A stretch of DNA of 64,000 nucleotides, taken from Eledone cirrhosa (Eukaryota). Positions 3,700 to 63,135 of this stretch are shown one piece after another. Below the pieces are notes generated by a model. That model was not told the DNA's origin. It saw nothing but the letters and a program-made list of their open reading frames with translations, and did no database searches. Made by a program: the position numbers and the translations under genes. The DNA lies in NCBI GenBank assembly GCA_964016885.1, contig OZ024745.1, positions 15,996,001 through 16,060,000 of the forward strand, read 5' to 3'. Position 1 is the first letter of the stretch. The number at the start of each line of letters is the position of its first letter.

Positions 3700-3953
<254 letters not shown>

Positions 3954-12000: not shown

Positions 12001-12947
12001 ATATTCATCCCCTATTTCGTCAATAACACGTAGTATTTCATTATTTGGTTTTTTATTCACCATTGTCATGTTAACACGTTCAACCAGAGAGATATTTATA
12101 CATGAGTTAATTTCTCTCTGGAAGATTTCGTTGGGGGAAATTTTCAATTGTTTATACTTTTGATTATCATTATCGATAGTATTTTCCACGACAGTCGAGG
12201 TAGACTCGGGTGGTATACGTGGTGTCACATTTATTCGATTATTATTATTATTTCTTCGATTATTATTATTATCGATAGTGTTTTCCCCAGCATTCGAGGT
12301 AGACTTAGATGGTACAGGCATAGTTGTTTCAAGGCACTGTTCGACCTGGCTGCTAGGAAGTCTAGTAGCATGGCGATCTGTAGCACGTGTTGTTGATTCC
12401 ATGTTTGTTGTGGGGGACTTACAATTAATAATATTTATCTTATTTTTACGTTCAACAAACGTCGCTTGTTGGCGTAATTGTTTCGCTGTGAAATAATTTA
12501 GCTCTGGGTGCATTTCGTCCTAGTGTAGCTTCATTCTATTCATATAGCCAATGGAGGGATTGTTTTTTGCCATTTTATAACAATTAAATAAATGATTATT
12601 AAGTTCGCAACTCCAAGAGAAATGCGATTTATAATTTCGGTTTCTTCTGTAGCTACAACTGAATAAAGTTTGATTACCTTCTTTGTTATTTGTCTTCGAT
12701 ACTTCCTTAATTTTCTTGTTAATGTTGTGTTCAGCCATGCTGTTTGTAGCAAATCCTTGTAAAATGAATTATGTATTTAGTCGGATATCTCTACGAATTC
12801 GAATAAAAGGTGTCTTCAGAAGGGATAGTTAGAAGAATAACCAGTTATTCAACATGACTGTAGTTGTGGCATTACTGTCGGAGATAGTATTCATCTTAAA
12901 TTTAATAAATAGTCTCCCACGCCAAAATATGCGACTGATCGCGTTGA
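9035..12947 (-). mobile_element. R4/Dong-like RLE non-LTR retrotransposon, copy 1 (5'-truncated, disrupted)
   Basis: RT motifs KNYRPIACQN, WLDYKKAFDSVPH, FFVDDLKLY, YRYLG and GGRGL; CCHC (CRLC..HVISSC), RHD, and RLE motif HNRPDIMIWD..VVEVSCP; (TATG)n on both sides. Confidence 0.92.
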
Positions 12948-12978
<31 letters not shown>

Positions 12979-13055
12979 TGTATGTATGTATGTATGTATG
13001 TATGTATGTATGTATGTATGTATGTATGTATGTATGTATGTATGTATGTATGTAC

Positions 13056-13094
<39 letters not shown>

Positions 13095-13095
<1 letters not shown>

Positions 13096-13708
13096 TTACG
13101 GTATACATATCTCGTGTTCATGAGTGATGGCAGGCAGGAGGCTGAATTAAGTGCAAGAAATGTAGGAGCTGGTGCAGTAATGCGCAAGCTTCAGCATTCG
13201 GTAATCAGAAGACAGGGGGTAGGTGTAAAAGTGTAAAAGACAAACTCGCTATTTTCAATTCAGTATTCGTTCCAGCCCTTGCCTATGGTCATGAATCTTG
13301 GGTGATGACCGAATAAATACGATCGCGAATAAAAGCGGGCGAAATGGGGTTCCTCTGAAGGGTTTTTGAAGTAATGTTACTCGATAGAGTGCGTAGCCCG
13401 AGATCAGAGAGTCAATCCCGTTACTTTTCCGAAATTGAGAGGTCACAGCTCCAATACTATGGACATGGGGTTAAAATGTCTGAAGAAAGAATCGCTGGAC
13501 AGATTTTACGTGTAAAACCAACTTGCAGGAGACCCAGGGATAGACCCCGAGCAAGATGGTTGGATCACATCCGCGGGCTCTGCTGGTTTCGCTTGAGGAT
13601 TCACCAGCTCAATTGGAAACAGTTGCTTGTGACTGGACCCGCTGGAGGGCGTGCTTGAAAACTCTGCCCACACAATCTTTCTAGGAATAAATGGGTGAAT
13701 AATAATAA
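13095..13708 (+). mobile_element. RTE-clade LINE 3' fragment
   Basis: YGHESW-like segment, LLDRVRS, IERSQLQYYGH, RRPRDRPRARWLD; ends in (AAT)n. Confidence 0.8.
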
Positions 13709-14063
13709 TCGTTTCTACTTTTCGTACATGGCCAGCAATCTGAAAGGAGAGATGTTGACCAAATCGACCCCAGTGTGTTACTGGTACTTTATTTTATCGT
13801 CTCTGCAAGGATGAAATGCAAAGATAAGCTCGGCGGGATTTGAAGTTAGAACGTAGAGGGCCGTAAGCCACAAAGTATGTTGTCCGACACTCTACCTATA
13901 CTGCTAATCCACCGCCAATCATAATAATAATGGTTTCTGATTTAGGCACAAGGCCAACAATGTTATCGACCCCGTAAAGATGAAAGGCGAAGCTAACTCA
14001 GAACGTAAAGCGCCGTAACTCTACGCTGCAAAACATGTCCGACGCTCTTCCTATTTTGCCAAT

Positions 14064-14111
<48 letters not shown>

Positions 14112-14315
14112 ATAATAATAATAATTATTATTTCTACATTTGGCACAAGGCCAGCAATTACCCAGTACATTACTTGTATTTTATTTTATCGACCCCGTAA
14201 GGATGAAAGGCAAAGTTAACCTCGGCGGGATTTGAACTCAGAATGGCAAGGGCTCTAACTCTATGCGTCAAAGCCTGGCGCCCGACCCTCAACCGATATT
14301 GCCAATCACCGCCCC
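13709..14315 (-). mobile_element. Cluster of three tRNA-derived SINE copies
   Basis: Reverse complement of the family consensus: A-box TGGCAGTATCGG, B-box GAGTTCAAATCCC, core CTTTCATCCTTACGGGGTCGATAAAAT, tail GGCCTTGTGCC..AGTAGAAAC. Confidence 0.85.
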
Positions 14316-15375: not shown

Positions 15376-15464
15376 CATAGTTTTCCATTCCTACGTATGC
15401 ATAGAAATACGTATATATGAGTTTATGTATATATATATATATATATATAGTTTTAATATAGAAG

Positions 15465-15515
15465 AGCTTCTACAGGACTAGAACTGTTTCATTCGTGAGA
15501 AATCATCAGGAAGCT
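15465..15515 (-). ncRNA. Type I hammerhead ribozyme
   Basis: AGCUUC-CUGAUGA-UUUC(UCAC)GAAU-GAAA-CAG(UUCUAGUC)CUG-UA^-GAAGCU: intact core, 6-bp stem I, GUA triplet. Confidence 0.85.
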
Positions 15516-15650
15516 GTCCAAATAAGTGGTAGTATTTATATCTTTCCTTTTCTTTAAATTCTTTAACCAATGTCCTCCATCCATCCCAACCCCCACCCTC
15601 TCCTACCACCAGAAAAAGAAAGATAAATACTACCACTTATTTGGACAGCC

Positions 15651-15701
15651 AGCTTCCTGATGATTTCTCACGAATGAAACAATTCTAGTCCTGTAGAAGC
15701 T
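15651..15701 (+). ncRNA. Type I hammerhead ribozyme (mirror copy)
   Basis: Same as 15465-15515 with one substitution in stem III. Confidence 0.8.
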
Positions 15702-15834
15702 CTTCTATATTAAAACTTTTATACTCTGCTATGTATTGAGTACCCTACTTACTGTGGTTACCTCCGATTCAACCCGGAATAACTTATATATATATATATA
15801 TAATGGAACATGTGTGAGATCCTTGGTACAGTTA

Positions 15835-16010
15835 GGTATATTTGAAAAAAAGGAAAAGAATGACTTAACTTGTATCGTTAAAAAATTTATGATTTAATGT
15901 TATAATATAATAATATTATGAGTTGGTAGATAATATTATAATATTATATTATAACATTAAATCATAACATTTTTTAACACTACAAGTGAACTCATTCTTT
16001 TCCTTTTTTT

Positions 16011-16018
<8 letters not shown>
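15835..16018. repeat. AT-rich inverted repeat (about 80-bp arms)
   Basis: TATATTTGAAAAAAAGGAAAAGAATGA... mirrored by ...TCATTCTTTTCCTTTTTTTCAAATATA. Confidence 0.8.
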
Positions 16019-16062
<44 letters not shown>

Positions 16063-16103
16063 TTCAAAATATTAGCAAAAATAGACATTCGTGTGATCAA
16101 GTA

Positions 16104-16170
16104 TATTTTATTATACATATTTCAGAGGTACTGAGCTATCTTCAACAGTACGCCCTCATCAGATAAAATA
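16104..16170 (-). ncRNA. Type I hammerhead ribozyme
   Basis: UAUUUUAU-CUGAUGA-GGGCGUACUG..CAGUACCUCU-GAAA-UAUGUAUA^-AUAAAAUA: 8-bp stem I, long stem II, minimal stem III, AUA triplet. Confidence 0.7.
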
Positions 16171-16637
16171 AGATGATGCATGACATACCCTGACATAGTA
16201 GATGGTTAAGATTCAGTCATGGTAGTGAATAAGTTATGACAAGACTCAATATTTATATACCTTACGATTGAGACATGAACAAATTTACATATAATACAGA
16301 GGGTGCGTGTGAGAAAGCTTAAAAATACATAATAGCAATTTATATAACTGTTAGAGATTCAAATAATTTAAATTATTGAAGAAAGAAGGAAAGAAGAAAG
16401 ACAGAGAGAAACAGATGAGGAAAAACTATAGTTACTAGAAGTATAGAAAGCAAAAGACAGTTATGTAAATTGCTATTATGTACTTTTAAGCTTTCTCACA
16501 CGCACCCTCTGTATTATATGTAAGTTTGTTCATGTCTCAATCTTAAGGTATATAAATATTGAGTCTTGTCATATCTTATTCACTACCATGACTGAATCTT
16601 AACCATCTACTATGTCAGGGTATGTCATGCATCATCT

Positions 16638-16704
16638 TATTTTATCTGATGAGAACATACTGTTGAAGATAGCTCAGTACCTCTGAAATATGTATAATAA
16701 AATA
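16638..16704 (+). ncRNA. Type I hammerhead ribozyme (mirror copy)
   Basis: TATTTTAT-CTGATGA...CAGTACCTCT-GAAATATGTATA-ATAAAATA. Confidence 0.65.
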
Positions 16705-16842
16705 TACTTGATCACAAGAATATCTATTTTGTTAATATTTTGAATTAATATTAATAACTCCGGAAAAACATTCCTGTTCAGTGCTTCCAATCTATTGTAA
16801 AACTCCTTCCCTGATTTATTCATTGAACCTTGTTTAACCTTT

Positions 16843-16919
<77 letters not shown>

Positions 16920-16921
<2 letters not shown>

Positions 16922-17055
16922 AATATAAAAGGTAGATCGAAGTTACTTTTGCAGCATATATATAAATCTTATTGACATATTGCAATCCTTTGTAATATGC
17001 CAATAAAGTTTATATATATGCTGCAAATGTAACTTCGATCTTACTTTATTTATAC
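16920..17055. repeat. Short inverted repeat (about 60-bp arms)
   Basis: AGATCGAAGTTAC..TGCAGCATATATATAAA mirrored by TTTATATATATGCTGCA..GTAACTTCGATCT. Confidence 0.8.
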
Positions 17056-18704: not shown

Positions 18705-19660
18705 TGTTATCTCTTTCTCTTAATTTCGAGTATATTTTTGACTGGCCACCTTCCTGGTGGCAAGGTTGTAAAAGAAAAAAAATGGTCATCCCTTGAATCG
18801 CAAGAATGTTTTGCAAATTTTGAAGGTGCCAGCTATCGCAGCCATTTGTAGACTATGAATTAGGGAGCTGCGCTCTTTGTCCGCAAATCCAAGTTCAGTT
18901 ATACATTGGTCCAAGCGGGTTGGTATATAACCCGAGGCTCCAATAATGATGGGTATGAAGCTAAAGGTGTATCTTGGATACTGGATTTGTAAACTCCTCA
19001 TCAATGGTCCGTAGATGTCCTCCTTCTCCTGTATTTTTCTGACAACGTTTACATCAAGTGGACAGCTGATATCCACAACAGAATACGTTTTCAATGTGTG
19101 GTCCCAAACAACAATATCAGGCCGGTTGAGCTTTATTTTGGAGGCAGTTTTTATTTTCAGGTTCCACCAGTATTCCTTAGTGCCATCTGTCTCAATATAT
19201 TCTTCCTCTTTTGTTTTTAATTTTGTTTTCCGAAGTGCGTTCCAGATGGTTCTAGCTATCCCATCGTGTCTCATGGGGAGGTAGTAGCGAGATGACATTC
19301 TTTCGCAGCTGGCAACAATGTGGCTTACATCTTCGATCTTTGATTTACATAGCCTGCATTTATTGTCAGCTGATGGCTCTCCTCTTTTGTGCAGCAGATA
19401 TTTGGTAGGGAGTTCTTGTTCCTGTATTGCATAGAAATATCCCTCAAGGTGTGATGTCATAAACTTGTCGGAACTCCATGCCAGGCTTTTTGAGTGGTTT
19501 ATCCCCTCTCTGGTCTGTGTTTTACGTCTCAAGTATCCATGTACAACATTTTCTGTAAATTGGTCAATTTTTTCATCTTGTTTGAACATTGAATAGGATC
19601 TTCCGATTTCTCTGGGTGAGAGATTTATATCAGGCTTTATTCCATATCTCTCCTCATCAA
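18705..19660 (-). mobile_element. R4/Dong-like LINE 3' fragment, second subfamily
   Basis: 267-aa ORF with AIQEQ, CRLC..HIVASC, RHD and NRPDIVVWD..VVDISCP; (TATG)n on both sides. Confidence 0.9.
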
Positions 19661-19792
19661 TTTATGTATGTATGTATGTATGTATGTATGTATGTATGTA
19701 TGTATGTATGTATGTATGTATGTATGTATGTATGTATGTATGTATGTATGTACGTACGTACGTATGTATGTACGTACGTATGTACATATGTA

Positions 19793-29255: not shown

Positions 29256-29304
<49 letters not shown>

Positions 29305-29308
<4 letters not shown>

Positions 29309-32300
29309 AAATAACGAAACGAAATTAAATTTCGTTTCGTTTGTAACTCACTTTTGTATGACTGACGCTTAAACAATTAAGTTAAAGATGTACATCCATA
29401 TATGTATACTGAAATACTAGTATGTATATGAATACACACACGTATACATATGTAGATGTACCAAGTTTTTTCACTGGTCACTTTACTGTGAGTGGCCAGC
29501 TATTCTGTATGTAAACACACAGACAAACCGGTTTTTAGAGTCATACTGGTTTTTGAGGAAACACCTTTCCTCTATTCTCCAGAAAGCCAGACAAGGAATA
29601 TTGAACTAGTTTCGTTGTTGTTACAACTCATCAGCAATATTTACCTATCTTCCGGCCTCTCTAGAGAATCGTAAATGCACATATCGTTATATGCTTTTTC
29701 TATGAAAATTAGTAGTGGGCAGACTAATTTGCATAGAGTGTGAGTAAGTACCGGTTCAACGGAGACGATAAAAACAAATAACGAAACGAAATTAAATTTC
29801 GTTTCGTTTGTAACTCACTTTTGTATGACTGACGCTTAAACAATTAAGTTAAAGATGTACATCCATATATGTATACTGAAATACTAGTATGTATATGAAT
29901 ACACACACGTATACATATGTAGATGTACCAAGTTTTTTCACTGGTCACTTTACTGTGAGTGGCCAGCTATTCTGTATGTAAACACACAGACAAACCGGTT
30001 TTTAGAGTCATACTGGTTTTTGAGGAAACACCTTTCCTCTATTCTCCAGAAAGCCAGACAAGGAATATTGAACTAGTTTCGTTGTTGTTACAACTCATCA
30101 GCAATATTTACCTATCTTCCGGCCTCTCTAGAGAATCGTAAATGCACATATCGTTATATGCTTTTTCTATGAAAATTAGTAGTGGGCAGACTAATTTGCA
30201 TAGAGTGTGAGTAAGTACCGGTTCAACGGAGACGATAAAAACAAATAACGAAACGAAATTAAATTTCGTTTCGTTTGTAACTCACTTTTGTATGACTGAC
30301 GCTTAAACAATTAAGTTAAAGATGTACATCCATATATGTATACTGAAATACTAGTATGTATATGAATACACACACGTATACATATGTAGATGTACCAAGT
30401 TTTTTCACTGGTCACTTTACTGTGAGTGGCCAGCTATTCTGTATGTAAACACACAGACAAACCGGTTTTTAGAGTCATACTGGTTTTTGAGGAAACACCT
30501 TTCCTCTATTCTCCAGAAAGCCAGACAAGGAATATTGAACTAGTTTCGTTGTTGTTACAACTCATCAGCAATATTTACCTATCTTCCGGCCTCTCTAGAG
30601 AATCGTAAATGCACATATCGTTATATGCTTTTTCTATGAAAATTAGTAGTGGGCAGACTAATTTGCATAGAGTGTGAGTAAGTACCGGTTCAACGGAGAC
30701 GATAAAAACAAATAACGAAACGAAATTAAATTTCGTTTCGTTTGTAACTCACTTTTGTATGACTGACGCTTAAACAATTAAGTTAAAGATGTACATCCAT
30801 ATATGTATACTGAAATACTAGTATGTATATGAATACACACACGTATACATATGTAGATGTACCAAGTTTTTTCACTGGTCACTTTACTGTGAGTGGCCAG
30901 CTATTCTGTATGTAAACACACAGACAAACCGGTTTTTAGAGTCATACTGGTTTTTGAGGAAACACCTTTCCTCTATTCTCCAGAAAGCCAGACAAGGAAT
31001 ATTGAACTAGTTTCGTTGTTGTTACAACTCATCAGCAATATTTACCTATCTTCCGGCCTCTCTAGAGAATCGTAAATGCACATATCGTTATATGCTTTTT
31101 CTATGAAAATTAGTAGTGGGCAGACTAATTTGCATAGAGTGTGAGTAAGTACCGGTTCAACGGAGACGATAAAAACAAATAACGAAACGAAATTAAATTT
31201 CGTTTCGTTTGTAACTCACTTTTGTATGACTGACGCTTAAACAATTAAGTTAAAGATGTACATCCATATATGTATACTGAAATACTAGTATGTATATGAA
31301 TACACACACGTATACATATGTAGATGTACCAAGTTTTTTCACTGGTCACTTTACTGTGAGTGGCCAGCTATTCTGTATGTAAACACACAGACAAACCGGT
31401 TTTTAGAGTCATACTGGTTTTTGAGGAAACACCTTTCCTCTATTCTCCAGAAAGCCAGACAAGGAATATTGAACTAGTTTCGTTGTTGTTACAACTCATC
31501 AGCAATATTTACCTATCTTCCGGCCTCTCTAGAGAATCGTAAATGCACATATCGTTATATGCTTTTTCTATGAAAATTAGTAGTGGGCAGACTAATTTGC
31601 ATAGAGTGTGAGTAAGTACCGGTTCAACGGAGACGATAAAAACAAATAACGAAACGAAATTAAATTTCGTTTCGTTTGTAACTCACTTTTGTATGACTGA
31701 CGCTTAAACAATTAAGTTAAAGATGTACATCCATATATGTATACTGAAATACTAGTATGTATATGAATACACACACGTATACATATGTAGATGTACCAAG
31801 TTTTTTCACTGGTCACTTTACTGTGAGTGGCCAGCTATTCTGTATGTAAACACACAGACAAACCGGTTTTTAGAGTCATACTGGTTTTTGAGGAAACACC
31901 TTTCCTCTATTCTCCAGAAAGCCAGACAAGGAATATTGAACTAGTTTCGTTGTTGTTACAACTCATCAGCAATATTTACCTATCTTCCGGCCTCTCTAGA
32001 GAATCGTAAATGCACATATCGTTATATGCTTTTTCTATGAAAATTAGTAGTGGGCAGACTAATTTGCATAGAGTGTGAGTAAGTACCGGTTCAACGGAGA
32101 CGATAAAAACAAATAACGAAACGAAATTAAATTTCGTTTCGTTTGTAACTCACTTTTGTATGACTGACGCTTAAACAATTAAGTTAAAGATGTACATCCA
32201 TATATGTATACTGAAATACTAGTATGTATATGAATACACACACGTATACATATGTAGATGTACCAAGTTTTTTCACTGGTCACTTTACTGTGAGTGGCCA

Positions 32301-35300
32301 GCTATTCTGTATGTAAACACACAGACAAACCGGTTTTTAGAGTCATACTGGTTTTTGAGGAAACACCTTTCCTCTATTCTCCAGAAAGCCAGACAAGGAA
32401 TATTGAACTAGTTTCGTTGTTGTTACAACTCATCAGCAATATTTACCTATCTTCCGGCCTCTCTAGAGAATCGTAAATGCACATATCGTTATATGCTTTT
32501 TCTATGAAAATTAGTAGTGGGCAGACTAATTTGCATAGAGTGTGAGTAAGTACCGGTTCAACGGAGACGATAAAAACAAATAACGAAACGAAATTAAATT
32601 TCGTTTCGTTTGTAACTCACTTTTGTATGACTGACGCTTAAACAATTAAGTTAAAGATGTACATCCATATATGTATACTGAAATACTAGTATGTATATGA
32701 ATACACACACGTATACATATGTAGATGTACCAAGTTTTTTCACTGGTCACTTTACTGTGAGTGGCCAGCTATTCTGTATGTAAACACACAGACAAACCGG
32801 TTTTTAGAGTCATACTGGTTTTTGAGGAAACACCTTTCCTCTATTCTCCAGAAAGCCAGACAAGGAATATTGAACTAGTTTCGTTGTTGTTACAACTCAT
32901 CAGCAATATTTACCTATCTTCCGGCCTCTCTAGAGAATCGTAAATGCACATATCGTTATATGCTTTTTCTATGAAAATTAGTAGTGGGCAGACTAATTTG
33001 CATAGAGTGTGAGTAAGTACCGGTTCAACGGAGACGATAAAAACAAATAACGAAACGAAATTAAATTTCGTTTCGTTTGTAACTCACTTTTGTATGACTG
33101 ACGCTTAAACAATTAAGTTAAAGATGTACATCCATATATGTATACTGAAATACTAGTATGTATATGAATACACACACGTATACATATGTAGATGTACCAA
33201 GTTTTTTCACTGGTCACTTTACTGTGAGTGGCCAGCTATTCTGTATGTAAACACACAGACAAACCGGTTTTTAGAGTCATACTGGTTTTTGAGGAAACAC
33301 CTTTCCTCTATTCTCCAGAAAGCCAGACAAGGAATATTGAACTAGTTTCGTTGTTGTTACAACTCATCAGCAATATTTACCTATCTTCCGGCCTCTCTAG
33401 AGAATCGTAAATGCACATATCGTTATATGCTTTTTCTATGAAAATTAGTAGTGGGCAGACTAATTTGCATAGAGTGTGAGTAAGTACCGGTTCAACGGAG
33501 ACGATAAAAACAAATAACGAAACGAAATTAAATTTCGTTTCGTTTGTAACTCACTTTTGTATGACTGACGCTTAAACAATTAAGTTAAAGATGTACATCC
33601 ATATATGTATACTGAAATACTAGTATGTATATGAATACACACACGTATACATATGTAGATGTACCAAGTTTTTTCACTGGTCACTTTACTGTGAGTGGCC
33701 AGCTATTCTGTATGTAAACACACAGACAAACCGGTTTTTAGAGTCATACTGGTTTTTGAGGAAACACCTTTCCTCTATTCTCCAGAAAGCCAGACAAGGA
33801 ATATTGAACTAGTTTCGTTGTTGTTACAACTCATCAGCAATATTTACCTATCTTCCGGCCTCTCTAGAGAATCGTAAATGCACATATCGTTATATGCTTT
33901 TTCTATGAAAATTAGTAGTGGGCAGACTAATTTGCATAGAGTGTGAGTAAGTACCGGTTCAACGGAGACGATAAAAACAAATAACGAAACGAAATTAAAT
34001 TTCGTTTCGTTTGTAACTCACTTTTGTATGACTGACGCTTAAACAATTAAGTTAAAGATGTACATCCATATATGTATACTGAAATACTAGTATGTATATG
34101 AATACACACACGTATACATATGTAGATGTACCAAGTTTTTTCACTGGTCACTTTACTGTGAGTGGCCAGCTATTCTGTATGTAAACACACAGACAAACCG
34201 GTTTTTAGAGTCATACTGGTTTTTGAGGAAACACCTTTCCTCTATTCTCCAGAAAGCCAGACAAGGAATATTGAACTAGTTTCGTTGTTGTTACAACTCA
34301 TCAGCAATATTTACCTATCTTCCGGCCTCTCTAGAGAATCGTAAATGCACATATCGTTATATGCTTTTTCTATGAAAATTAGTAGTGGGCAGACTAATTT
34401 GCATAGAGTGTGAGTAAGTACCGGTTCAACGGAGACGATAAAAACAAATAACGAAACGAAATTAAATTTCGTTTCGTTTGTAACTCACTTTTGTATGACT
34501 GACGCTTAAACAATTAAGTTAAAGATGTACATCCATATATGTATACTGAAATACTAGTATGTATATGAATACACACACGTATACATATGTAGATGTACCA
34601 AGTTTTTTCACTGGTCACTTTACTGTGAGTGGCCAGCTATTCTGTATGTAAACACACAGACAAACCGGTTTTTAGAGTCATACTGGTTTTTGAGGAAACA
34701 CCTTTCCTCTATTCTCCAGAAAGCCAGACAAGGAATATTGAACTAGTTTCGTTGTTGTTACAACTCATCAGCAATATTTACCTATCTTCCGGCCTCTCTA
34801 GAGAATCGTAAATGCACATATCGTTATATGCTTTTTCTATGAAAATTAGTAGTGGGCAGACTAATTTGCATAGAGTGTGAGTAAGTACCGGTTCAACGGA
34901 GACGATAAAAACAAATAACGAAACGAAATTAAATTTCGTTTCGTTTGTAACTCACTTTTGTATGACTGACGCTTAAACAATTAAGTTAAAGATGTACATC
35001 CATATATGTATACTGAAATACTAGTATGTATATGAATACACACACGTATACATATGTAGATGTACCAAGTTTTTTCACTGGTCACTTTACTGTGAGTGGC
35101 CAGCTATTCTGTATGTAAACACACAGACAAACCGGTTTTTAGAGTCATACTGGTTTTTGAGGAAACACCTTTCCTCTATTCTCCAGAAAGCCAGACAAGG
35201 AATATTGAACTAGTTTCGTTGTTGTTACAACTCATCAGCAATATTTACCTATCTTCCGGCCTCTCTAGAGAATCGTAAATGCACATATCGTTATATGCTT

Positions 35301-37798
35301 TTTCTATGAAAATTAGTAGTGGGCAGACTAATTTGCATAGAGTGTGAGTAAGTACCGGTTCAACGGAGACGATAAAAACAAATAACGAAACGAAATTAAA
35401 TTTCGTTTCGTTTGTAACTCACTTTTGTATGACTGACGCTTAAACAATTAAGTTAAAGATGTACATCCATATATGTATACTGAAATACTAGTATGTATAT
35501 GAATACACACACGTATACATATGTAGATGTACCAAGTTTTTTCACTGGTCACTTTACTGTGAGTGGCCAGCTATTCTGTATGTAAACACACAGACAAACC
35601 GGTTTTTAGAGTCATACTGGTTTTTGAGGAAACACCTTTCCTCTATTCTCCAGAAAGCCAGACAAGGAATATTGAACTAGTTTCGTTGTTGTTACAACTC
35701 ATCAGCAATATTTACCTATCTTCCGGCCTCTCTAGAGAATCGTAAATGCACATATCGTTATATGCTTTTTCTATGAAAATTAGTAGTGGGCAGACTAATT
35801 TGCATAGAGTGTGAGTAAGTACCGGTTCAACGGAGACGATAAAAACAAATAACGAAACGAAATTAAATTTCGTTTCGTTTGTAACTCACTTTTGTATGAC
35901 TGACGCTTAAACAATTAAGTTAAAGATGTACATCCATATATGTATACTGAAATACTAGTATGTATATGAATACACACACGTATACATATGTAGATGTACC
36001 AAGTTTTTTCACTGGTCACTTTACTGTGAGTGGCCAGCTATTCTGTATGTAAACACACAGACAAACCGGTTTTTAGAGTCATACTGGTTTTTGAGGAAAC
36101 ACCTTTCCTCTATTCTCCAGAAAGCCAGACAAGGAATATTGAACTAGTTTCGTTGTTGTTACAACTCATCAGCAATATTTACCTATCTTCCGGCCTCTCT
36201 AGAGAATCGTAAATGCACATATCGTTATATGCTTTTTCTATGAAAATTAGTAGTGGGCAGACTAATTTGCATAGAGTGTGAGTAAGTACCGGTTCAACGG
36301 AGACGATAAAAACAAATAACGAAACGAAATTAAATTTCGTTTCGTTTGTAACTCACTTTTGTATGACTGACGCTTAAACAATTAAGTTAAAGATGTACAT
36401 CCATATATGTATACTGAAATACTAGTATGTATATGAATACACACACGTATACATATGTAGATGTACCAAGTTTTTTCACTGGTCACTTTACTGTGAGTGG
36501 CCAGCTATTCTGTATGTAAACACACAGACAAACCGGTTTTTAGAGTCATACTGGTTTTTGAGGAAACACCTTTCCTCTATTCTCCAGAAAGCCAGACAAG
36601 GAATATTGAACTAGTTTCGTTGTTGTTACAACTCATCAGCAATATTTACCTATCTTCCGGCCTCTCTAGAGAATCGTAAATGCACATATCGTTATATGCT
36701 TTTTCTATGAAAATTAGTAGTGGGCAGACTAATTTGCATAGAGTGTGAGTAAGTACCGGTTCAACGGAGACGATAAAAACAAATAACGAAACGAAATTAA
36801 ATTTCGTTTCGTTTGTAACTCACTTTTGTATGACTGACGCTTAAACAATTAAGTTAAAGATGTACATCCATATATGTATACTGAAATACTAGTATGTATA
36901 TGAATACACACACGTATACATATGTAGATGTACCAAGTTTTTTCACTGGTCACTTTACTGTGAGTGGCCAGCTATTCTGTATGTAAACACACAGACAAAC
37001 CGGTTTTTAGAGTCATACTGGTTTTTGAGGAAACACCTTTCCTCTATTCTCCAGAAAGCCAGACAAGGAATATTGAACTAGTTTCGTTGTTGTTACAACT
37101 CATCAGCAATATTTACCTATCTTCCGGCCTCTCTAGAGAATCGTAAATGCACATATCGTTATATGCTTTTTCTATGAAAATTAGTAGTGGGCAGACTAAT
37201 TTGCATAGAGTGTGAGTAAGTACCGGTTCAACGGAGACGATAAAAACAAATAACGAAACGAAATTAAATTTCGTTTCGTTTGTAACTCACTTTTGTATGA
37301 CTGACGCTTAAACAATTAAGTTAAAGATGTACATCCATATATGTATACTGAAATACTAGTATGTATATGAATACACACACGTATACATATGTAGATGTAC
37401 CAAGTTTTTTCACTGGTCACTTTACTGTGAGTGGCCAGCTATTCTGTATGTAAACACACAGACAAACCGGTTTTTAGAGTCATACTGGTTTTTGAGGAAA
37501 CACCTTTCCTCTATTCTCCAGAAAGCCAGACAAGGAATATTGAACTAGTTTCGTTGTTGTTACAACTCATCAGCAATATTTACCTATCTTCCGGCCTCTC
37601 TAGAGAATCGTAAATGCACATATCGTTATATGCTTTTTCTATGAAAATTAGTAGTGGGCAGACTAATTTGCATAGAGTGTGAGTAAGTACCGGTTCAACG
37701 GAGACGATAAAAACAAATAACGAAACGAAATTAAATTTCGTTTCGTTTGTAACTCACTTTTGTATGACTGACGCTTAAACAATTAAGTTAAAGATGTA
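29305..37798 (-). repeat. 467-bp tandem array, 18 full units plus a partial unit; retrozyme-like, HHR sense on the minus strand
   Basis: Exact 467-bp period in the ORF track (29492, 29959 ... 37431); no differences seen between units; begins right after (TA)n. Confidence 0.97.
29597..29641 (-). ncRNA. Minimal type I hammerhead ribozyme; repeats every 467 bp up to 37536-37580 (18 copies)
   Basis: AAUAUUG-CUGAUGA-GUUG(UAACAA)CAAC-GAAA-C(UA)G-UU^-CAAUAUU: 7-bp stem I, 4-bp stem II, palindromic stem III (AACUAGUU), GUU triplet. Confidence 0.88.
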
Positions 37799-40167
37799 TT
37801 TCAGTATACATATATGGATGTACATCTTTAACTTAATTGTTTAAGCGTCAGTCATACAAAAGTGAGTTACAAACGAAACGAAATTTAATTTCGTTTCGTT
37901 ATTTGTTTTTATCGTCTCCGTTGAACCGGTACTTACTCACACTCTATGCAAATTAGTCTGCCCACTACTAATTTTCATAGAAAAAGCATATAACGATATG
38001 TGCATTTACGATTCTCTAGAGAGGCCGGAAGATAGGTAAATATTGCTGATGAGTTGTAACAACAACGAAACTAGTTCAATATTCCTTGTCTGGCTTTCTG
38101 GAGAATAGAGGAAAGGTGTTTCCTCAAAAACCAGTATGACTCTAAAAACCGGTTTGTCTGTGTGTTTACATACAGAATAGCTGGCCACTCACAGTAAAGT
38201 GACCAGTGAAAAAACTTGGTACATCTACATATGTATACGTGTGTGTATTCATATACATACTAGTATTTCAGTATACATATATGGATGTACATCTTTAACT
38301 TAATTGTTTAAGCGTCAGTCATACAAAAGTGAGTTACAAACGAAACGAAATTTAATTTCGTTTCGTTATTTGTTTTTATCGTCTCCGTTGAACCGGTACT
38401 TACTCACACTCTATGCAAATTAGTCTGCCCACTACTAATTTTCATAGAAAAAGCATATAACGATATGTGCATTTACGATTCTCTAGAGAGGCCGGAAGAT
38501 AGGTAAATATTGCTGATGAGTTGTAACAACAACGAAACTAGTTCAATATTCCTTGTCTGGCTTTCTGGAGAATAGAGGAAAGGTGTTTCCTCAAAAACCA
38601 GTATGACTCTAAAAACCGGTTTGTCTGTGTGTTTACATACAGAATAGCTGGCCACTCACAGTAAAGTGACCAGTGAAAAAACTTGGTACATCTACATATG
38701 TATACGTGTGTGTATTCATATACATACTAGTATTTCAGTATACATATATGGATGTACATCTTTAACTTAATTGTTTAAGCGTCAGTCATACAAAAGTGAG
38801 TTACAAACGAAACGAAATTTAATTTCGTTTCGTTATTTGTTTTTATCGTCTCCGTTGAACCGGTACTTACTCACACTCTATGCAAATTAGTCTGCCCACT
38901 ACTAATTTTCATAGAAAAAGCATATAACGATATGTGCATTTACGATTCTCTAGAGAGGCCGGAAGATAGGTAAATATTGCTGATGAGTTGTAACAACAAC
39001 GAAACTAGTTCAATATTCCTTGTCTGGCTTTCTGGAGAATAGAGGAAAGGTGTTTCCTCAAAAACCAGTATGACTCTAAAAACCGGTTTGTCTGTGTGTT
39101 TACATACAGAATAGCTGGCCACTCACAGTAAAGTGACCAGTGAAAAAACTTGGTACATCTACATATGTATACGTGTGTGTATTCATATACATACTAGTAT
39201 TTCAGTATACATATATGGATGTACATCTTTAACTTAATTGTTTAAGCGTCAGTCATACAAAAGTGAGTTACAAACGAAACGAAATTTAATTTCGTTTCGT
39301 TATTTGTTTTTATCGTCTCCGTTGAACCGGTACTTACTCACACTCTATGCAAATTAGTCTGCCCACTACTAATTTTCATAGAAAAAGCATATAACGATAT
39401 GTGCATTTACGATTCTCTAGAGAGGCCGGAAGATAGGTAAATATTGCTGATGAGTTGTAACAACAACGAAACTAGTTCAATATTCCTTGTCTGGCTTTCT
39501 GGAGAATAGAGGAAAGGTGTTTCCTCAAAAACCAGTATGACTCTAAAAACCGGTTTGTCTGTGTGTTTACATACAGAATAGCTGGCCACTCACAGTAAAG
39601 TGACCAGTGAAAAAACTTGGTACATCTACATATGTATACGTGTGTGTATTCATATACATACTAGTATTTCAGTATACATATATGGATGTACATCTTTAAC
39701 TTAATTGTTTAAGCGTCAGTCATACAAAAGTGAGTTACAAACGAAACGAAATTTAATTTCGTTTCGTTATTTGTTTTTATCGTCTCCGTTGAACCGGTAC
39801 TTACTCACACTCTATGCAAATTAGTCTGCCCACTACTAATTTTCATAGAAAAAGCATATAACGATATGTGCATTTACGATTCTCTAGAGAGGCCGGAAGA
39901 TAGGTAAATATTGCTGATGAGTTGTAACAACAACGAAACTAGTTCAATATTCCTTGTCTGGCTTTCTGGAGAATAGAGGAAAGGTGTTTCCTCAAAAACC
40001 AGTATGACTCTAAAAACCGGTTTGTCTGTGTGTTTACATACAGAATAGCTGGCCACTCACAGTAAAGTGACCAGTGAAAAAACTTGGTACATCTACATAT
40101 GTATACGTGTGTGTATTCATATACATACTAGTATTTCAGTATACATATATGGATGTACATCTTTAAC

Positions 40168-40173
<6 letters not shown>
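37796..40173 (+). repeat. Inverted arm of the 467-bp array (5 units plus 43 bp)
   Basis: Reverse complement of the same unit; ends at (TA)n. Confidence 0.97.
38039..38083 (+). ncRNA. Minimal type I hammerhead ribozyme; repeats every 467 bp up to 39907-39951 (5 copies)
   Basis: AATATTG CTGATGA GTTG TAACAA CAAC GAAAC TA GTT CAATATT read directly on the plus strand. Confidence 0.88.
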
Positions 40174-41634: not shown

Positions 41635-42140
41635 ATCCCGCCGAGGTTGACTTTGCCTTTCATCCTTACGGGGTCGATAAAATAAAGTACCAGTAATGCA
41701 CTGGGTAATTGCTGGCCTTGTGCCTAAAGTAGAAACAATTATATATATATCGGTGAATTGGCAGTATCGGTAGAGGGTTGGACGCCATGCTTTCTAGCAT
41801 AGTTACGTCCCTTTACGATCTGAGTTCAAATCCCGCCAAGGTTAACTTTGTCTTTCATCCTTATGGAGTCGATAAAATAAAGTACCAGTAATGTACTGGG
41901 TAAGTGCTGGCCTTGTGCCTAAAGTAGAAACAAGTATATATATATACATAGGGCGGTGACTTGGCAGTATCGGTAGAGGGTCGGACGCCTTGCTTTGCAG
42001 CATAGAGCTACGGCCCTTGCCATTCTGAGTTCAAATCCCGCCGAGGCTAACTTTGCCTTTCATCCTTACGGGGTCGATAAAATAAAGTACCAGTAATGTA
42101 CTGGGTAATTGCTGGCCTTGTGCCAATAGTAGAAACAATT
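41635..42140 (+). mobile_element. Three head-to-tail tRNA-derived SINEs separated by short (TA)n
   Basis: One 5'-truncated copy and two full copies, each ending AGTAGAAACAA. Confidence 0.88.
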
Positions 42141-42212
42141 ATATATATATAGAGAGAGAGAGGGAGAGAGACTGATCATGTGATTATACTGGGAAAACAC
42201 TTTATTTTCTAG

Positions 42213-44554: not shown

Positions 44555-44601
<47 letters not shown>

Positions 44602-44764
44602 TGCATTATGGTCCATCTGGTTCCTTACCACACTTCCTTCGTTATATATATATATATATATATATAAGTAAATTTACGGTGCTGAGAACGGGAAGACCAC
44701 AAATCAGGGGAGTACACATGCATGGAAAGAAGCAGAGTAGGTATAGAGGGAGGAAATCCCGACT

Positions 44765-44850
44765 GCGACACCTACCAGTTTCGGCTTGTATTCGGCAAGC
44801 CTTTTCAATGGAGTACACACTTGAGAAAGGCTTGCCGAGTACAAACCTTG
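44765..44850. other. Short fold-back with a degenerate HHR-like motif
   Basis: Minus strand reads UUGAAAA-GGCUUG(CCGAAUA)CAAGCC-GAAAC-UG-GUA; the core is mutated and stem I is not evident; a partial mirror copy follows. Confidence 0.4.
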
Positions 44851-48953: not shown

Positions 48954-48954
48954 A

Positions 48955-49053
48955 CAGGGTGTCCCCAAAAAATGTATACACACTTCAACAACATTTTAAT
49001 AGATATTGTCTCTACAGGTAATCAAAGTGTGTATATATTTTTGGGATACCCTG
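48955..49053. mobile_element. Tc1/mariner-like MITE
   Basis: TIR CAGGGTGTCCCCAAAAAATGTATACACACTT mirrored by AAGTGTGTATATATTTTTGGGATACCCTG. Confidence 0.75.
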
Positions 49054-49144
49054 TGTATATATAGTTGTTGTATGGTTGCCATAAATGCGTCTGTAGGCGG
49101 TATGCCGTTTGAGCACTCCATGCTCGCGCAGAGCAGAGTATATT

Positions 49145-49670
49145 ATTATAGATAACGAGGAATTGGTGATGTATCAAAAGACAATTTATTAACATATTAC
49201 ATATGTTTCTCCGGCGATCAGCTCAAGGCAGGATCTATTATAGATCGAACCTGACTCTGCATTCGCAAGTTCCTCAGATATGTTTTGCGTTTACAAAGCA
49301 TTCAATCCGATTTGAAAACGCAAAACATATCTGAGGAACTTGATAATGTAGGTTCGATCTGTAACAGATCCTGCCTCGAGCTGATCATCGGAGAAACATA
49401 TGTAATATGTTAATAAATTGTCTTTTGATGCATCACTGATTCCTCGTTATCTATAATGACGTATTATCTTCGTTTTTTCCCGTTCTTTGCCAGGGAACGT
49501 TTCCACGAACCAAAGTATCGTCTTCCTGTATTCCTCTGGTTGCAGCAAAGTTTTTCGAAATATTTACTTCTGCGTTCACAGATTGACTTTGTTAGTTTCA
49601 GAAGATCCCGTTAAGGGTGAAAGCAGCGATTCTTTGCTTAAACTTTAATCTGTTATTTTAATAAATATTT
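49145..49670. mobile_element. Fold-back element with HHR-like motif in each arm (49191-49284 minus; 49324-49411 plus)
   Basis: AACAUAU-CUGAGGA-(55-nt branched domain II)-GAAAC(AUAU)GUA^-AUAUGUU; stem II closure is ambiguous. The 3' segment TTCTTTGCTTAAACTTTAATCTGTTATT recurs at about 58875. Confidence 0.65.
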
Positions 49671-49776: not shown

Positions 49777-50005
49777 AATAGAAGCTTTCGCTGCATCCCT
49801 GACTAAAAAAAACTTTAGTCTGACAGCGGGGTTTAGAACCGTCCACAAGATGAGTATTGGCGTACATGTACGTCAATACTCACCTTTTTTCATTTCTTGG
49901 CGGGTTCTAAACCCCATTGTCAGGCTAACATTTCTTTAGTCAGGATGCGGCGAAAGCTTCTATTTCTAGTTTCAAACTTGCTCGCTGTTTCAAGACGAAC
50001 TTGCT
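49777..50005. mobile_element. Fold-back element related to 62669-63005
   Basis: Arms fold at GTACATGTAC; shares GACTAAA, GGGGTTTAGAACC, GATGAGTATTG and the TTTCAAACT..CTC.CTGTTTCAA tail. Confidence 0.75.
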
Positions 50006-50104
50006 TATATATATATATATATACGGATACTGCCAATTCACCGCCCTAATCAGTATTAATAATATATATACCGATACTGCCAATTCACCGCCCTAATCAG
50101 TATT

Positions 50105-50229
<125 letters not shown>

Positions 50230-50468
50230 TATGATAAATGGAATAGAATGAAACGAAATTTCATTTCTCACTCTTAGTACGGCACTTACTTAAATGTAAG
50301 TATGTATGTATACGTACATACATATATGTATACAGACGTACAGTAGCATGTATATATATACATACAGGCACACATATATATATGCACGTATCAGTTTACC
50401 GAACATTTATTATAATGCTCGGTTTGTTCGTTTGTAAACCATCTGTCAACCATCTGGCAGAAAGGTAT

Positions 50469-50511: not shown

Positions 50512-50569
50512 TCCTGTGTCAGTGTTGAACAAAAAGGTGACGTGGTTGCCTAAACACTGTACGGCGTAA

Positions 50570-51292
50570 TTCAGGCTGTTTGTTTGTTTACAAACGAACA
50601 AACCGAGCATTATACTAAATACTAAATCTCTTCCTTCCAACATTGAATTTCATAATAACAGTAATAGTACTCCCGACGTCATTGTAAACCCTAGGCTAAC
50701 TTCTGTAAACCCAAATACAACGTCAAACACAACTTCGCTAAATGTTCATAATCCAACTCTAAATCAAGAAACTATTATTCCTATTATTCCTATCGCAAAC
50801 AACTTCTCCAATCCAATTCCTTCTATAGATAACACTAGGTCACTCATTAATAATCTCTCTAATTGCAACTGCCGCATTAAAAATAAATGTCCTCTCAACA
50901 ACCATTGTCTTGATAAAAACTTAATTTATGAATGTAAAGTTATAACTAGCACCAATTCCTTCACCTATTTTGGCTCCACTTCCACCTCTTTTAAAGCTCG
51001 TCTCTATAATCATCATTCATCTTTTAAATACAAACTTAAAAGAACCAACACGGCTCTCTCAGAACTCATATGGTCCTTGAAAGACAAAAACATTAAATAT
51101 ACCATCTTTTGGAAGAAGGTTTCTTCTGCATCCTCATACTTGAACAGCTCTCTATCTAAAATCTGTAATCTCTGCCTAAATGAAAAATTTACCATTATCT
51201 CTAATCTAGATTCTATAATAAATAGACGTACAGATTTGTTTTCTATCTGCTTGCATAAATTCCATAGGACTTTTCACAAAGTATACAGCTAA
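50570..51292 (+). CDS. Penelope-like element C-terminus: GIY-YIG endonuclease (5'-truncated, no start codon)
   Basis: Stop-free frame of about 240 codons: N/T/P-rich linker, then CNCRIKNKCPLNNHCLDKNLIYECKV..TYFGSTSTSFKARLYNHHSSF..TALSELIWSLK..ICNLCLNEK..INRR..CLH. Confidence 0.85.
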   Translation, partial: FRLFVCLQTNKPSIILNTKSLPSNIEFHNNSNSTPDVIVNPRLTSVNPNTTSNTTSLNVHNPTLNQETIIPIIPIANNFSNPIPSIDNTRSLINNLSNCNCRIKNKCPLNNHCLDKNLIYECKVITSTNSFTYFGSTSTSFKARLYNHHSSFKYKLKRTNTALSELIWSLKDKNIKYTIFWKKVSSASSYLNSSLSKICNLCLNEKFTIISNLDSIINRRTDLFSICLHKFHRTFHKVYS

Positions 51293-51459
51293 TATTCAAT
51301 TCTTTATCAATTTAGAATCTTTTTCTCAAAGGCACATATACATACACCTCTTTAAAATATACCCATCTTCCTACCTTACTTCAAAGGGCATTATACACTC
51401 TATAATACTTGTTTACTCATTACCCTCATTCTATCTTCACCTTGTAAAATCCTTCATAA

Positions 51460-52000
51460 CATATACATTTGTTTTTTTGACGTTAGAATATTCATCCGCA
51501 ATTATTATTATTTTTTCTCTCCATCATCAAACTTTTTAATCTCAATACATTAACTCCCTCTCCTTCTTTTGACGCTAGTATATTCATCCTTAATTTATTA
51601 TTTTTTCTTCCCATCAACTAACTCATTCTTAATACATATTAACTCTTTCTTCGCACATATTATCAATTCCTTCAATATACAAACCTTAACTTCACATTAT
51701 TTTTCTCAAATCATCTAATACACAAACCTTAATAATTTTTTAATACATATTAACTCTTTCTTCGCACATATTATCAATTCCTTCAATATACAAACCTTAA
51801 CTTCACATTATTTTTCTCAAATCCTTCAACACACAAACCTTAATAATTTTTTTCTCTTCGTTAATTTTGAAATTGCCATAATACTTATAAACATACACCT
51901 TTTTGACGTTAGAATATTCATCCGCAATTATTATTTTTTCTCTCTATCTTCAAACTTTTTAATCTCAATACATATCAACTCCCTCTCTTTCCTCGTACAT
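51460..52000. repeat. Pyrimidine-rich region with internal direct duplications (probable PLE 3' UTR)
   Basis: Tandem duplication of about 110 bp at 51630-51850; TTTTGACGTTAGAATATTCATCC recurs. Confidence 0.65.
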
Positions 52001-52405
52001 ATTTTTCCCTTCGTTAATTTTCAAATTCTTTTAATTTATACATTATCTTCCAACGGTTTTCAACCTCTCTATGTAAAACAATATATCTTCTCTCAGTTAT
52101 AAAAACTATCTCTTTCTCTCTATCACCCATTTCTCCCTCTCCACCTTCAATCTCATCTCCTCCCCTTTTTTCATCCTTTCCACCCCCCCCCTCTCTAAAT
52201 AAAATATTTTTCCCAATATCACACATCAATCTAAAACTACTTTTCATATGTTGATTTAAAACTGCACTATCCACAAGTGTTTTTTAGCCTTCATATCATG
52301 TCCTCCTGTTTTATCTGATGAAAACACAAATATTATTGCATGATGATGTTTGTTTTTGAAATGCGCATAATAAAATACATGGAACTCCTTTAACCATCTT
52401 TTGAT

Positions 52406-52466
<61 letters not shown>

Positions 52467-60640: not shown

Positions 60641-62399
60641 GAATGTAGTCAAGGGCATAGCCAGCATAAAACGTCCTCTAAGAATTTGTGACACGTCAAT
60701 ACATCGTAATCAATTGACTGAATGCTTATAGTGTTTCAAAAAATTAGATATTATTGGAGCTATAAATAGCCCAGAAATTGTTCATTGAATCAACATACCT
60801 CTGAATTTTTCATTCAAAATTTGAGGAATAAACCTTATGTTGCTGAACATTAAACCTGCCCCCTTATGTTGCTGAACATTAAACCTGCCCCCATCTCGTT
60901 GTCCTAGACTTTGTAGTTTCTGGGATATTTACATTTCAAATGTTAGCACATTTTTTGAAACACCCATCATCATTCTGAGCACTTGAGTGCAAAATTTAAA
61001 GCTATTGCCTAACGAGGCTGTTTTATATATACACAGTGTGGATTTTACATCGAAATTAACAGCTTTTAGTTTAGTATTTAATTAATCATCAACAATGCTT
61101 AGTTTTTCTTAATGAGTCAGCAATACTGAGTTTTTAATTAATCACAATACTTAGATTTTATTGATCATTAACAATACCGGGCTTATAATTAATCAAAAAT
61201 TCTTAGATCTTAATTAACCAACAGCGTTTAGTTTTTAATTAATCAACAATGCTTAGTTTTTATTAATCAGTCGGCAATGCTCATGACCATTTTCAGAGTC
61301 TCCGAAACTAGCTGGTGGGAGGAAGTAAGATATACTTAGTCGAGAGACTTGACACAGATGCCTGCAACAGTGTGGACTCCACTAGGTGGTGGTGTTAAAC
61401 TGATTTAGTGTATCACCAACTCTAACGCAGTGAGCTTTAAATAAAAGATGTTGGTATGAGACAATTGACGAGAGAAATTACAACATGCAAAGAGCATGTA
61501 ACGTTTTCTCTATTCTGTCTGCTGGGACCATGAGGGAACTTGCACCAGAGAACATTTTATTGTATTGTCTATGTTTGCCTCACTGCTATAGGTTGCTGAT
61601 ATCTACATTTGTCGACAGAGAGACAGACACAACTGCTGTATTTGTAGAAGTAGGAATTATTACCAGGAAAATATAGATAAATAAAAATAAAGTACTTAAT
61701 TGTGGTCTATTACAGGCAGTCACTTACCCCATCAACATCACCAACTTCAACACAAAGAGAACACAGCGCAGTGATTGGTTGAAAATTAGAATGAATACAT
61801 ATTTACTATCTGTAGATTCATTTTAACATGAAGTTTATAATTTTATGAGTTATGTTATCGTCATTACTACGTAATAAATAGATAAAACATGATTTTACAG
61901 TTGAAGTTTTAATTATAAGTGCTATAAAATAAATAATTCTGAACTAAATTTTGAAGTAAAATAATAGGCTTACTAAATTGCATCACCACCATTTCTCCAC
62001 ATGTCAGACTAAAATTTAGTTTCACTTCTCTCTTAAATCATACATGCCATAGACATTGGCCACGTATCTTGCTATTTCACTATCTACTTTTATACTTCAC
62101 CCTTTATACCATACTCCATACACGTCCTTAACTATATTCTATTTAAATACGAAAAACTGACCACCCAACAGATTACACAATGACCCAAACAAATTTACTA
62201 TGTAAACAGATAACACTCTATTTCTCGCCTTTCTTTCCTTTATTTCTTACACACATACAGCCCCCCCCCCTTATACACCAACATATGCACACACACATAC
62301 TCATATCTATATTACAATAATTCCATTATCAACGGTACGTTCTTCTTCCTCGTTAGGGTGTGCCTGTATGTATGTATGTATGAGGCAACTTCTGTCAAG

Positions 62400-62565
62400 A
62401 AAGGTACTCAATACATTGGTAGAGTATAGATATATTAATTTTATTATAGAAATGACTTATACAAGACTAGAACGGTTTCAGTCGTAAAAAATCATAAAAA
62501 AAAACTTGATGATTTATTACGAATAAAGCAGTTCCAGTCCTGTAAAAGTTATTTCTATAACAATA
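62400..62565. mobile_element. Old fold-back copy of the 15.5-kb HHR family
   Basis: TATAGAAATGACTT..GACTAGAAC mirrored by TTGATGATT..GAATAAAGCAGTTCCAGTCCTGTAAAAGTTATTTCTATA. Confidence 0.6.

Positions 62566-62668: not shown

Positions 62669-63135
<467 letters not shown>

What the first reader, a model, noticed from the sequence alone, without database searches (positions are those of the whole stretch)
15450..16820. Several unrelated HHR elements share one architecture: fold-back, ribozyme sense outward, microsatellite flanks
Seen: elements at 15450, 16059, 49145 and 62400 (weaker at 3700 and 44765) are inverted repeats with one arm longer than the other. The HHR is on the minus strand in the left arm and on the plus strand in the right arm, the same polarity as the 467-bp array. 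The 15.5-kb, 16-kb and 49-kb families share only the HHR core. Inference: they are a diverse set of non-autonomous RNA elements using one PLE-type integration mechanism that prefers TA-rich microsatellites. They could be misannotated as MITEs.
Basis: partly seen in the sequence, partly recalled or inferred. Interest (0 to 1): 0.75.

Follow-up and report, generated by a model that had tools for sequence, protein, structure and literature searches.

The report
Head-to-head Penelope retrotransposon insertions
These fold-back elements are the cut-short 3' ends of three families of Penelope-type jumping genes inserted back to back in TA repeats, a known layout, and a protein-free ribozyme repeat with the same footprint likely borrows their enzyme.

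Summary
The architecture is real, but 'non-autonomous' is mostly wrong. In 600 kb sampled across the genome, same-family inverted hammerhead (HHR) pairs pointed outward 14 times, inward 0. The 15.5-kb (A), 16-kb (B) and 49-kb (C) families join Hydra-clade Penelope-like element (PLE) ORFs elsewhere in the genome. So the window copies are 5'-truncated PLE ends. One arm ends at a 'short' site and the other carries a 70-100-nt tail in 38 of 44 fold-backs. The arm reaching further 5' is tailed 13 times and untailed 15 times, so neither arm is a simple copy of the other. This fits two cDNAs primed on both target strands. Head-to-head layout, one-sided tail, HHR and (TA)n targeting are all published for PLEs. 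Less ordinary: the ORF-free 467-bp retrozyme array and a tRNA-headed family without a canonical HHR share the footprint, and the tails share an ACTC...GAGT stem. The scan noted all three before on other DNA of this genome. Verdict: new members of a known kind.

The parts
15428..15449 (.). (TA)n left flank of element A
15449..15553 (-). Family A left arm, short (untailed) 3' end, 5'-truncated
15465..15515 (-). Type I hammerhead of A left arm (U-U at 10.1/11.1, as in the commonest family haplotype)
15546..15784 (+). Family A right arm, long (tailed) 3' end; 8-nt overlap with the left arm at 15546-15553
15651..15701 (+). Type I hammerhead of A right arm
15717..15784 (+). Family A tail (about 70 nt) with the ACTC...GAGT stem near its start
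15802..16018 (.). Separate fold-back without an HHR in it; extension of about 35 nt on the left arm only
16014..16059 (.). (TA)n left flank of element B
16056..16457 (-). Family B left arm: untailed but reaching further 5' (includes the apparent 105-nt spacer)
16104..16170 (-). Type I hammerhead of B left arm
16457..16845 (+). Family B right arm, tailed; HHR at 16638-16704 with mutated stem II; tail 16752-16845
16845..16915 (.). (AC)n right flank of element B
3700..3842 (.). Older family A fold-back; broken core, left arm internally deleted (read from the sequence)
29301..40173 (.). Family D: ORF-free 467-bp retrozyme array, 18.2 minus + 5.1 plus units head to head; long end left, short end right, (TA)n on both sides
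44668..44850 (-). Fold-back of a family with a U3-A8-type HHR core; right arm stops before GAAA
49055..49463 (.). Family C fold-back: tailed minus arm 49055-49301, untailed plus arm 49312-49463; HHR with long stem II in both
50620..52410 (+). 3' half of a further Hydra-type PLE (family F): GIY-YIG domain 50858-51277, 3' UTR, HHR at 52315, ending in (TA)n
62382..62563 (.). Older family A fold-back, both cores broken; left arm tailed
62671..63006 (.). Family E fold-back: tRNA-headed unit without a canonical HHR, same polarity and one-tail layout

Best explanation
The elements at 15.5, 16 and 49 kb are 5'-truncated, head-to-head double copies of the HHR-bearing 3' ends of three Hydra-type Penelope-like retrotransposon families, likely made when the element's enzyme cuts both strands of a (TA)n tract and primes two cDNAs that are then joined at their truncated ends. 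Shown here: link to ORFs, outward polarity, two fixed 3' ends, one tail per fold-back, (TA)n targeting. Taken from published in vitro work on another PLE: cutting and extension of both strands, and two RT start sites that define the tail. Inferred: one start site is used per strand; both cDNAs come from the same source transcript; joining uses 0-10 nt of microhomology or filler; the ORF-free retrozyme D and the tRNA-headed family E are copied in trans by the same enzymes, D probably around a circular RNA.
For: ORF links: L097 has a 3.97-kb arm running RT, CxCX5C linker, GIY-YIG and 3' UTR into the B end. L202 has B sequence directly upstream of a 750-aa open frame. In L269 and L270 the A end runs without a TA break into an ORF about 220 nt on. 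In L273 and L274 an endonuclease domain and 3' UTR lie upstream of C on the same strand. Polarity: 14 outward, 0 inward in 60 evenly spaced 10-kb stretches, two-sided P = 1.2e-4. One short plus one long end: A 20 of 20, B 11 of 13, C 7 of 11. Arm reaching further 5': tailed 13, untailed 15, 10 ties, of 41 examined. Long arms share rare variants with each other: 7, 6, 6, 4 and 3 in L004, L100, L009, L054 and L141, against maxima of 1, 2, 5, 5 and 2 with other copies. (TA)3 right after the 3' end: A 27 of 29, B 23 of 25, C 19 of 27; background 8%. D is head to head at 10 of 11 loci with ends in view. Literature: PMC11167929, PMC8557442, PMC3846280.
Against: No biochemistry or RNA data for these elements. 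Four C fold-backs and two B fold-backs do not show one short plus one long end; the two B cases read through into the next unit. Junction overlaps are inconsistent: 18 of 40 show 1-10 nt, 1 is flush and 21 show gaps, some from poor alignment. Shared rare variants were absent or no higher than with other copies in about half of the 17 fold-backs that could be scored, mostly short arms, including the window's A, B and C elements; gene conversion between arms could also make them. The C link to an ORF crosses a long TG/TA tract and rests on two loci. The 467-bp unit and family E lack the ACTC...GAGT stem, so their partner enzyme is not identified.
Confidence: 0.8

Rival explanations
1. Same PLE origin, but the inversion comes from self-priming on an antisense RNA (or a snap-back cDNA), and the endonuclease later trims one end to give a one-sided tail.
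For: Proposed for Adineta PLEs from junction palindromes (PMC3846280, passages). Long arms share rare variants. Some junctions are short palindromes or overlaps.
Against: In 15 fold-backs the arm reaching further 5' lacks the tail, so a plain snap-back copy cannot supply the tailed arm. In vitro, the two ends match two RT start sites on sense RNA, and both strands are extended (PMC11167929). Random trimming of either arm would rescue the model and was not excluded.
Confidence: 0.12
2. One reading: A, B and C are independent non-autonomous RNA elements (retrozymes) that only borrow a PLE enzyme.
For: Most copies are short and ORF-free. Family C has a 5' end hotspot 31-38 nt before the core in 14 of 24 copies, as a short unit of its own might.
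Against: All three join Hydra-type ORFs in other copies. 5' ends of A and B are spread over hundreds to thousands of bases. No tandem arrays of A, B or C were seen. The C hotspot may be the pLTR transcription start (inference).
Confidence: 0.05
3. MITE or foldback DNA transposons with terminal inverted repeats.
For: Inverted repeats, high copy number, TA flanks.
Against: Most copies are single arms; inner ends vary; the two outer ends differ by a fixed tail; RT ORFs are attached.
Confidence: 0.01
4. Assembly artefact (fold-back chimeric reads).
For: The 467-bp array arms are 100% identical.
Against: Arms of A, B and C differ by 4-13%. Polarity and tail follow element biology in dozens of loci.
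Confidence: 0.02

Closest known systems
Hydra clade of Penelope-like elements (Craig et al. 2021, PMC8557442; passages and section 11 read)
   Same: C-terminal GIY-YIG, RW(K), DKT, CxCX5C, CxxC and CxH motifs; HHR in the terminal repeat; (TA)n targets; inverted 5'-truncated copy at the 5' end; tail at one end only.
   Different: Tails are about 65-98 nt, against 30-40 bp in that paper. Family B is over 4 kb with a 2-kb 3' UTR, against generally under 3 kb. A and C carry TG/TA tracts in their 3' UTRs. Abundance is very high (41,042 first-look candidates).
Adineta vaga and Schistosoma PLE insertions (Arkhipova et al. 2013, PMC3846280, passages; Cervera and de la Pena 2014, PMC4209133, part 1 of 4)
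   Same: Head-to-head inversions are called the most frequent arrangement, with the tail on one inverted pLTR. Paired HHRs 100-700 bp apart on opposite strands were ascribed to truncated PLEs. A U3-A8 core variant is described.
   Different: Those insertions have 8-10-bp target duplications, which cannot be read in (TA)n here. The 2013 paper favours antisense self-priming; the counts here favour two cDNAs.
Poseidon of Anolis in vitro (Frangieh et al. 2024, PMC11167929; parts 1-3 of 4)
   Same: AT-rich target, both strands cut and extended, two internal RT start sites bounding the tail, HHR not needed for insertion.
   Different: A different clade; that paper does not address inverted double insertions.
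Metazoan non-LTR retrozymes (Cervera and de la Pena 2020, PMC7229834, passages; Li et al. 2026, 10.64898/2026.07.22.740005, parts 1-3 of 5)
   Same: Family D: tandem ORF-free units, one type I HHR each, palindromic stem III; PLE origin or mobilisation was proposed.
   Different: Head-to-head arrays with a PLE tail are not described in what was read ('inverted' occurs 0 times in the 2020 text). D shows no sequence match to a pLTR here and carries a motif like the one upstream of host U6 genes.

Membership tests
Hydra-clade PLE (A, B, C, F) | Single ORF with RT and C-terminal GIY-YIG endonuclease | tested here: met
   B: L202 750-aa frame and L097; A: L269, L270. For C and F only the endonuclease end was seen. 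Pfam gave only a weak RVT_1 hit and none for L202.
Hydra-clade PLE (A, B, C, F) | RWK and DKT motifs | tested here: met
   RIRWR/SDKTK in A, RVRWH/SDKTN in B; RWK itself in a related ORF in L099. Not testable for C and F.
Hydra-clade PLE (A, B, C, F) | CxCX5C linker, CxxC and CxH around the conserved E and N | tested here: met
   CxCX5C in A (L269, L270), B (L097), C (L274) and F; CxxC in A L270, B L097 and F; CxH in all.
Hydra-clade PLE (A, B, C, F) | Absence of the CCHH motif in the endonuclease | tested here: inconclusive
   No cysteine pair seen inside the GIY-YIG core by eye; not tested on an alignment.
Hydra-clade PLE (A, B, C, F) | HHR in the pLTR and insertion into (TA)n | tested here: met
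Hydra-clade PLE (A, B, C, F) | RT phylogeny inside the Hydra clade | not tested
   No curated Hydra reference sequences in hand; homologues are mostly unnamed.
Non-LTR retrozyme (D) | Tandem ORF-free units, each with a type I HHR | tested here: met
   compensatory change in stem II between variants
Non-LTR retrozyme (D) | Expressed, self-cleaving, circular RNA | not testable with these tools
   No run on record as RNA was listed.
Non-LTR retrozyme (A, B, C) | Tandem, ORF-free family | tested here: not met
   Linked to ORFs, variable 5' truncation, no arrays.
MITE / foldback DNA transposon | Fixed, equal terminal inverted repeats in most copies | tested here: not met
MITE / foldback DNA transposon | Constant target-site duplication | tested here: inconclusive
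   Flanks are (TA)n, so a duplication cannot be read.

The most novel reading that the evidence does not exclude
Hydra PLE enzymes insert by two-strand priming with one start site per strand, set by a conserved ACTC...GAGT stem. This route also mobilises a whole class of non-coding passengers: rolling-circle retrozymes with a U6-type promoter motif, and a tRNA-headed, ribozyme-free tandem element, in effect a PLE-dependent SINE. Together they seed tens of thousands of long hairpins in one genome.
Probability: 0.45. Interest if true: 0.68.

Novelty: new member of a known kind. Interest (0 to 1): 0.42.

Why it matters
The layout itself is known. What the genome adds is numbers that bear on an open question, how PLEs make inverted insertions and one-sided tails: a near-strict one-tail rule and an even split in which arm reaches further 5'. 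It also gives direct genomic support for PLE mobilisation of retrozymes, which the cited work argues from co-occurrence and sequence trees. Extrapolating the 600-kb sample gives about 150,000 strict HHR motifs and about 70,000 fold-backs in this genome. That is a large, easily misannotated source of potential double-stranded RNA.

Tried and rejected
Rfam found only the 467-bp array HHR (HH9 model, below cut-off) among the 150 of 222 rows shown; the miRNA hits are microsatellite or hairpin artefacts. Monomer MFE folding gave the hammerhead fold only for D and partly for the A right arm; this is expected for HHRs with weak stem III and is not used as evidence. A family A HHR 1.6 kb downstream of a PLE ORF in L136 is a separate insertion and was rejected as a link; likewise L271 (A) and L272 (C), where a TA tract separates element and ORF. 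Whole-region local alignment of six families to U6 upstream DNA beat no shuffle control; only a specific 11-nt motif test was positive. Sequencing runs: no RNA holder listed; the contigs laid cannot show expression or ends. ARAGORN at default found no tRNA in the window; relaxed settings found tRNA-like heads in 7 of 8 family E loci. Pooled orientation counts over all loci (78 outward, 5 inward rows) include duplicated and query-selected loci and were not used for the test. My note 'C 9 of 11' was corrected to 7 of 11 on rereading. No structure prediction or tree was run.

Full report
1. Observation. The interval holds two fold-backs of different families. Element A has a minus arm at 15449-15553 and a plus arm at 15546-15784 (93% identical where they overlap). 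Element B has a minus arm at 16056-16457 and a plus arm at 16457-16845 (96%). Family C lies at 49055-49463 and the 467-bp array (D) at 29301-40173. A type I HHR descriptor finds both arms of A, both of C, the left arm of B and the array units, always minus on the left and plus on the right. The elements at 62400 and 3700 are older family A copies with broken cores. The one at 44765 belongs to a family with a UUGAAAA core, like the U3-A8 variant in PMC4209133.

2. Chance controls. The window lies in a 3.0-Gb genome. I took 60 evenly spaced 10-kb stretches from eight large contigs. The descriptor gave 31 hits against 1 in the reversed sequence. Over 1.14 Mb of all loci then held, some overlapping, it gave 213 against 1, in 20 clusters. 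In the 600-kb sample, 67 HHR-region segments formed 14 same-family inverted pairs, all outward (P = 1.2e-4). 3' ends are followed by (TA)3 in 27 of 29 A, 23 of 25 B and 19 of 27 C copies, against 8% of random places. Variants of D show a compensatory change in stem II.

3. What the families are. Thirty best-matching loci were fetched for each of A, B and C. Their 3' ends are fixed and their 5' ends vary. For B, a 3.97-kb arm in L097 runs from RT through a CxCX5C linker and GIY-YIG domain and a 2-kb 3' UTR to the HHR. L202 has the B end directly upstream of a 750-aa open frame. For A, 2 of 30 loci selected on its 5' part run without a TA break into an ORF about 220 nt on (L269, L270). For C, 2 of 30 such loci carry an endonuclease domain and a shared 3' UTR upstream on the same strand, across a TG/TA tract (L273, L274). 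The motifs match the Hydra clade as defined in PMC8557442; no tree was built. The window itself holds a fourth Hydra-type 3' half at 50620-52410. D had no ORF in any locus examined and was head to head at 10 of 11 loci with ends in view; one large array showed no junction in the stretches fetched.

4. The tail rule. Each family has two 3' ends, 65-98 nt apart. In fold-backs one arm has the short end and the other the long end: A 20 of 20, B 11 of 13, C 7 of 11, after removing two duplicated B loci and adding L097. The two B exceptions read through into the next unit. Of the four C exceptions, one has a deleted tail, one has two short ends beside a SINE, and two are rearranged. D shows both ends in the window and in L189, L192 and L283. 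Among 41 fold-backs, the arm reaching more than 10 nt further 5' was tailed in 13 and untailed in 15; 10 were ties and 3 were set aside. Several 5' extents are uncertain where the alignment broke. In the window's B element the untailed arm is the one reaching further 5', so neither arm contains the other. Long arms often share rare variants, which points to one source transcript or to later gene conversion; short arms, including the window's, were uninformative.

5. Mechanism. PMC11167929 showed in vitro that a Poseidon PLE protein cuts AT-rich DNA and extends both strands, starts reverse transcription at two internal sites that bound the tail, and does not need HHR cleavage. The simplest reading is that a Hydra enzyme primes one cDNA on each strand of a (TA)n tract, one from each start site, and the two truncated cDNAs are joined. 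That gives outward 3' ends, one tail and either arm longer. These steps are inferred. The antisense self-priming model of PMC3846280 survives only if end trimming hits either arm at random. Junctions show 1-10 nt of overlap in 18 of 40 cases, including 8 nt in A and 1 nt in B.

6. Shared signal and passengers. An ACTC...GAGT stem begins 4-9 nt after the short end in A, B, C, F and clusters 4 and 7, and cluster 9 has GCTC...GAGC (shuffle frequency 0.0005-0.016 per tail; the stricter pattern missed C). D and E lack it. A second GCTC...GAGC stem follows the long end in B read-through copies; A has a different hairpin there. Family E (62671-63006) is a unit of about 258 bp with a tRNA-like head and no canonical HHR. 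It is folded back at 13 of 15 distinct loci, about 11 with one short and one long end. So the HHR does not cause the layout. D, and a related tandem family in L137, carry an 11-nt motif also found upstream of host U6 genes, 90-100 nt before the core; 3 of 5000 simulated units had it. That test followed a lead from earlier scan notes.

7. Comparison with print. The head-to-head inverted truncated copy, the one-sided tail, the HHR and (TA)n targeting are all described for PLEs (PMC8557442, PMC3846280). Opposite-strand HHR pairs were already ascribed to truncated PLEs (PMC4209133). Retrozymes were proposed to derive from or depend on PLEs (PMC7229834; 10.64898/2026.07.22.740005). Seven searches did not list a paper on head-to-head retrozyme arrays, on counts of the tail rule, or on a tRNA-headed PLE passenger. 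The library omits most subscription papers and Repbase, and no supplements were read. Earlier scan notes on other DNA of this genome reach the same reading; they are not independent support.

8. Verdict. Interest 0.42.

Noticed in passing
window 62671-63006 and 49777-50010: Family E: tRNA-headed unit of about 258 bp, no canonical HHR, tandem and head to head with a 38-nt tail; many near-identical copies (1,494 first-look candidates). Candidate PLE-dependent SINE.
   Followed up: partly
window 37946-37956 and each array unit; L137: 11-nt motif matching the element about 70-80 nt upstream of host U6 genes, 90-100 nt 5' of the HHR core in D and in the related tandem family G.
   Followed up: partly
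window 50395-50620: Family G HHR element (core at 50475, plus strand), tandem in L137, directly upstream of the family F PLE fragment.
   Followed up: partly
window 44598-44648: Bare 50-nt end of a further abundant fold-back family between two (TA)n tracts; its longer copies carry the ACTC...GAGT stem.
   Followed up: partly
L269, L270, L273, L274: 3' UTRs of families A and C contain long degenerate TG/TA tracts, so these PLEs carry microsatellite-like DNA as well as targeting it.
   Followed up: no
family C, L061-L090: 5' ends cluster 31-38 nt before the HHR core in 14 of 24 copies; possibly the pLTR transcription start.
   Followed up: partly
window about 9300-13500 and 21800-26000: Two similar minus-strand LINE-like fragments; weak zf-RVT hit at 9349-10722, and one at the Pfam cut-off at 18789-19661.
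   Followed up: no
window 13698-14314, 41635-42151, 55020-55306 and others: Abundant SINE-like repeat of about 200 bp, with one inverted pair at 55020-55210.
   Followed up: no
window 16918-17054 and 48954-49054: Two more short inverted repeats without an HHR; 48954-49054 recurs with the same ends at other loci and looks more like a MITE.
   Followed up: no
G000:C19:31.78-31.84 Mb: Tandem array of about 30 U6 genes at 1.8-kb spacing.
   Followed up: no
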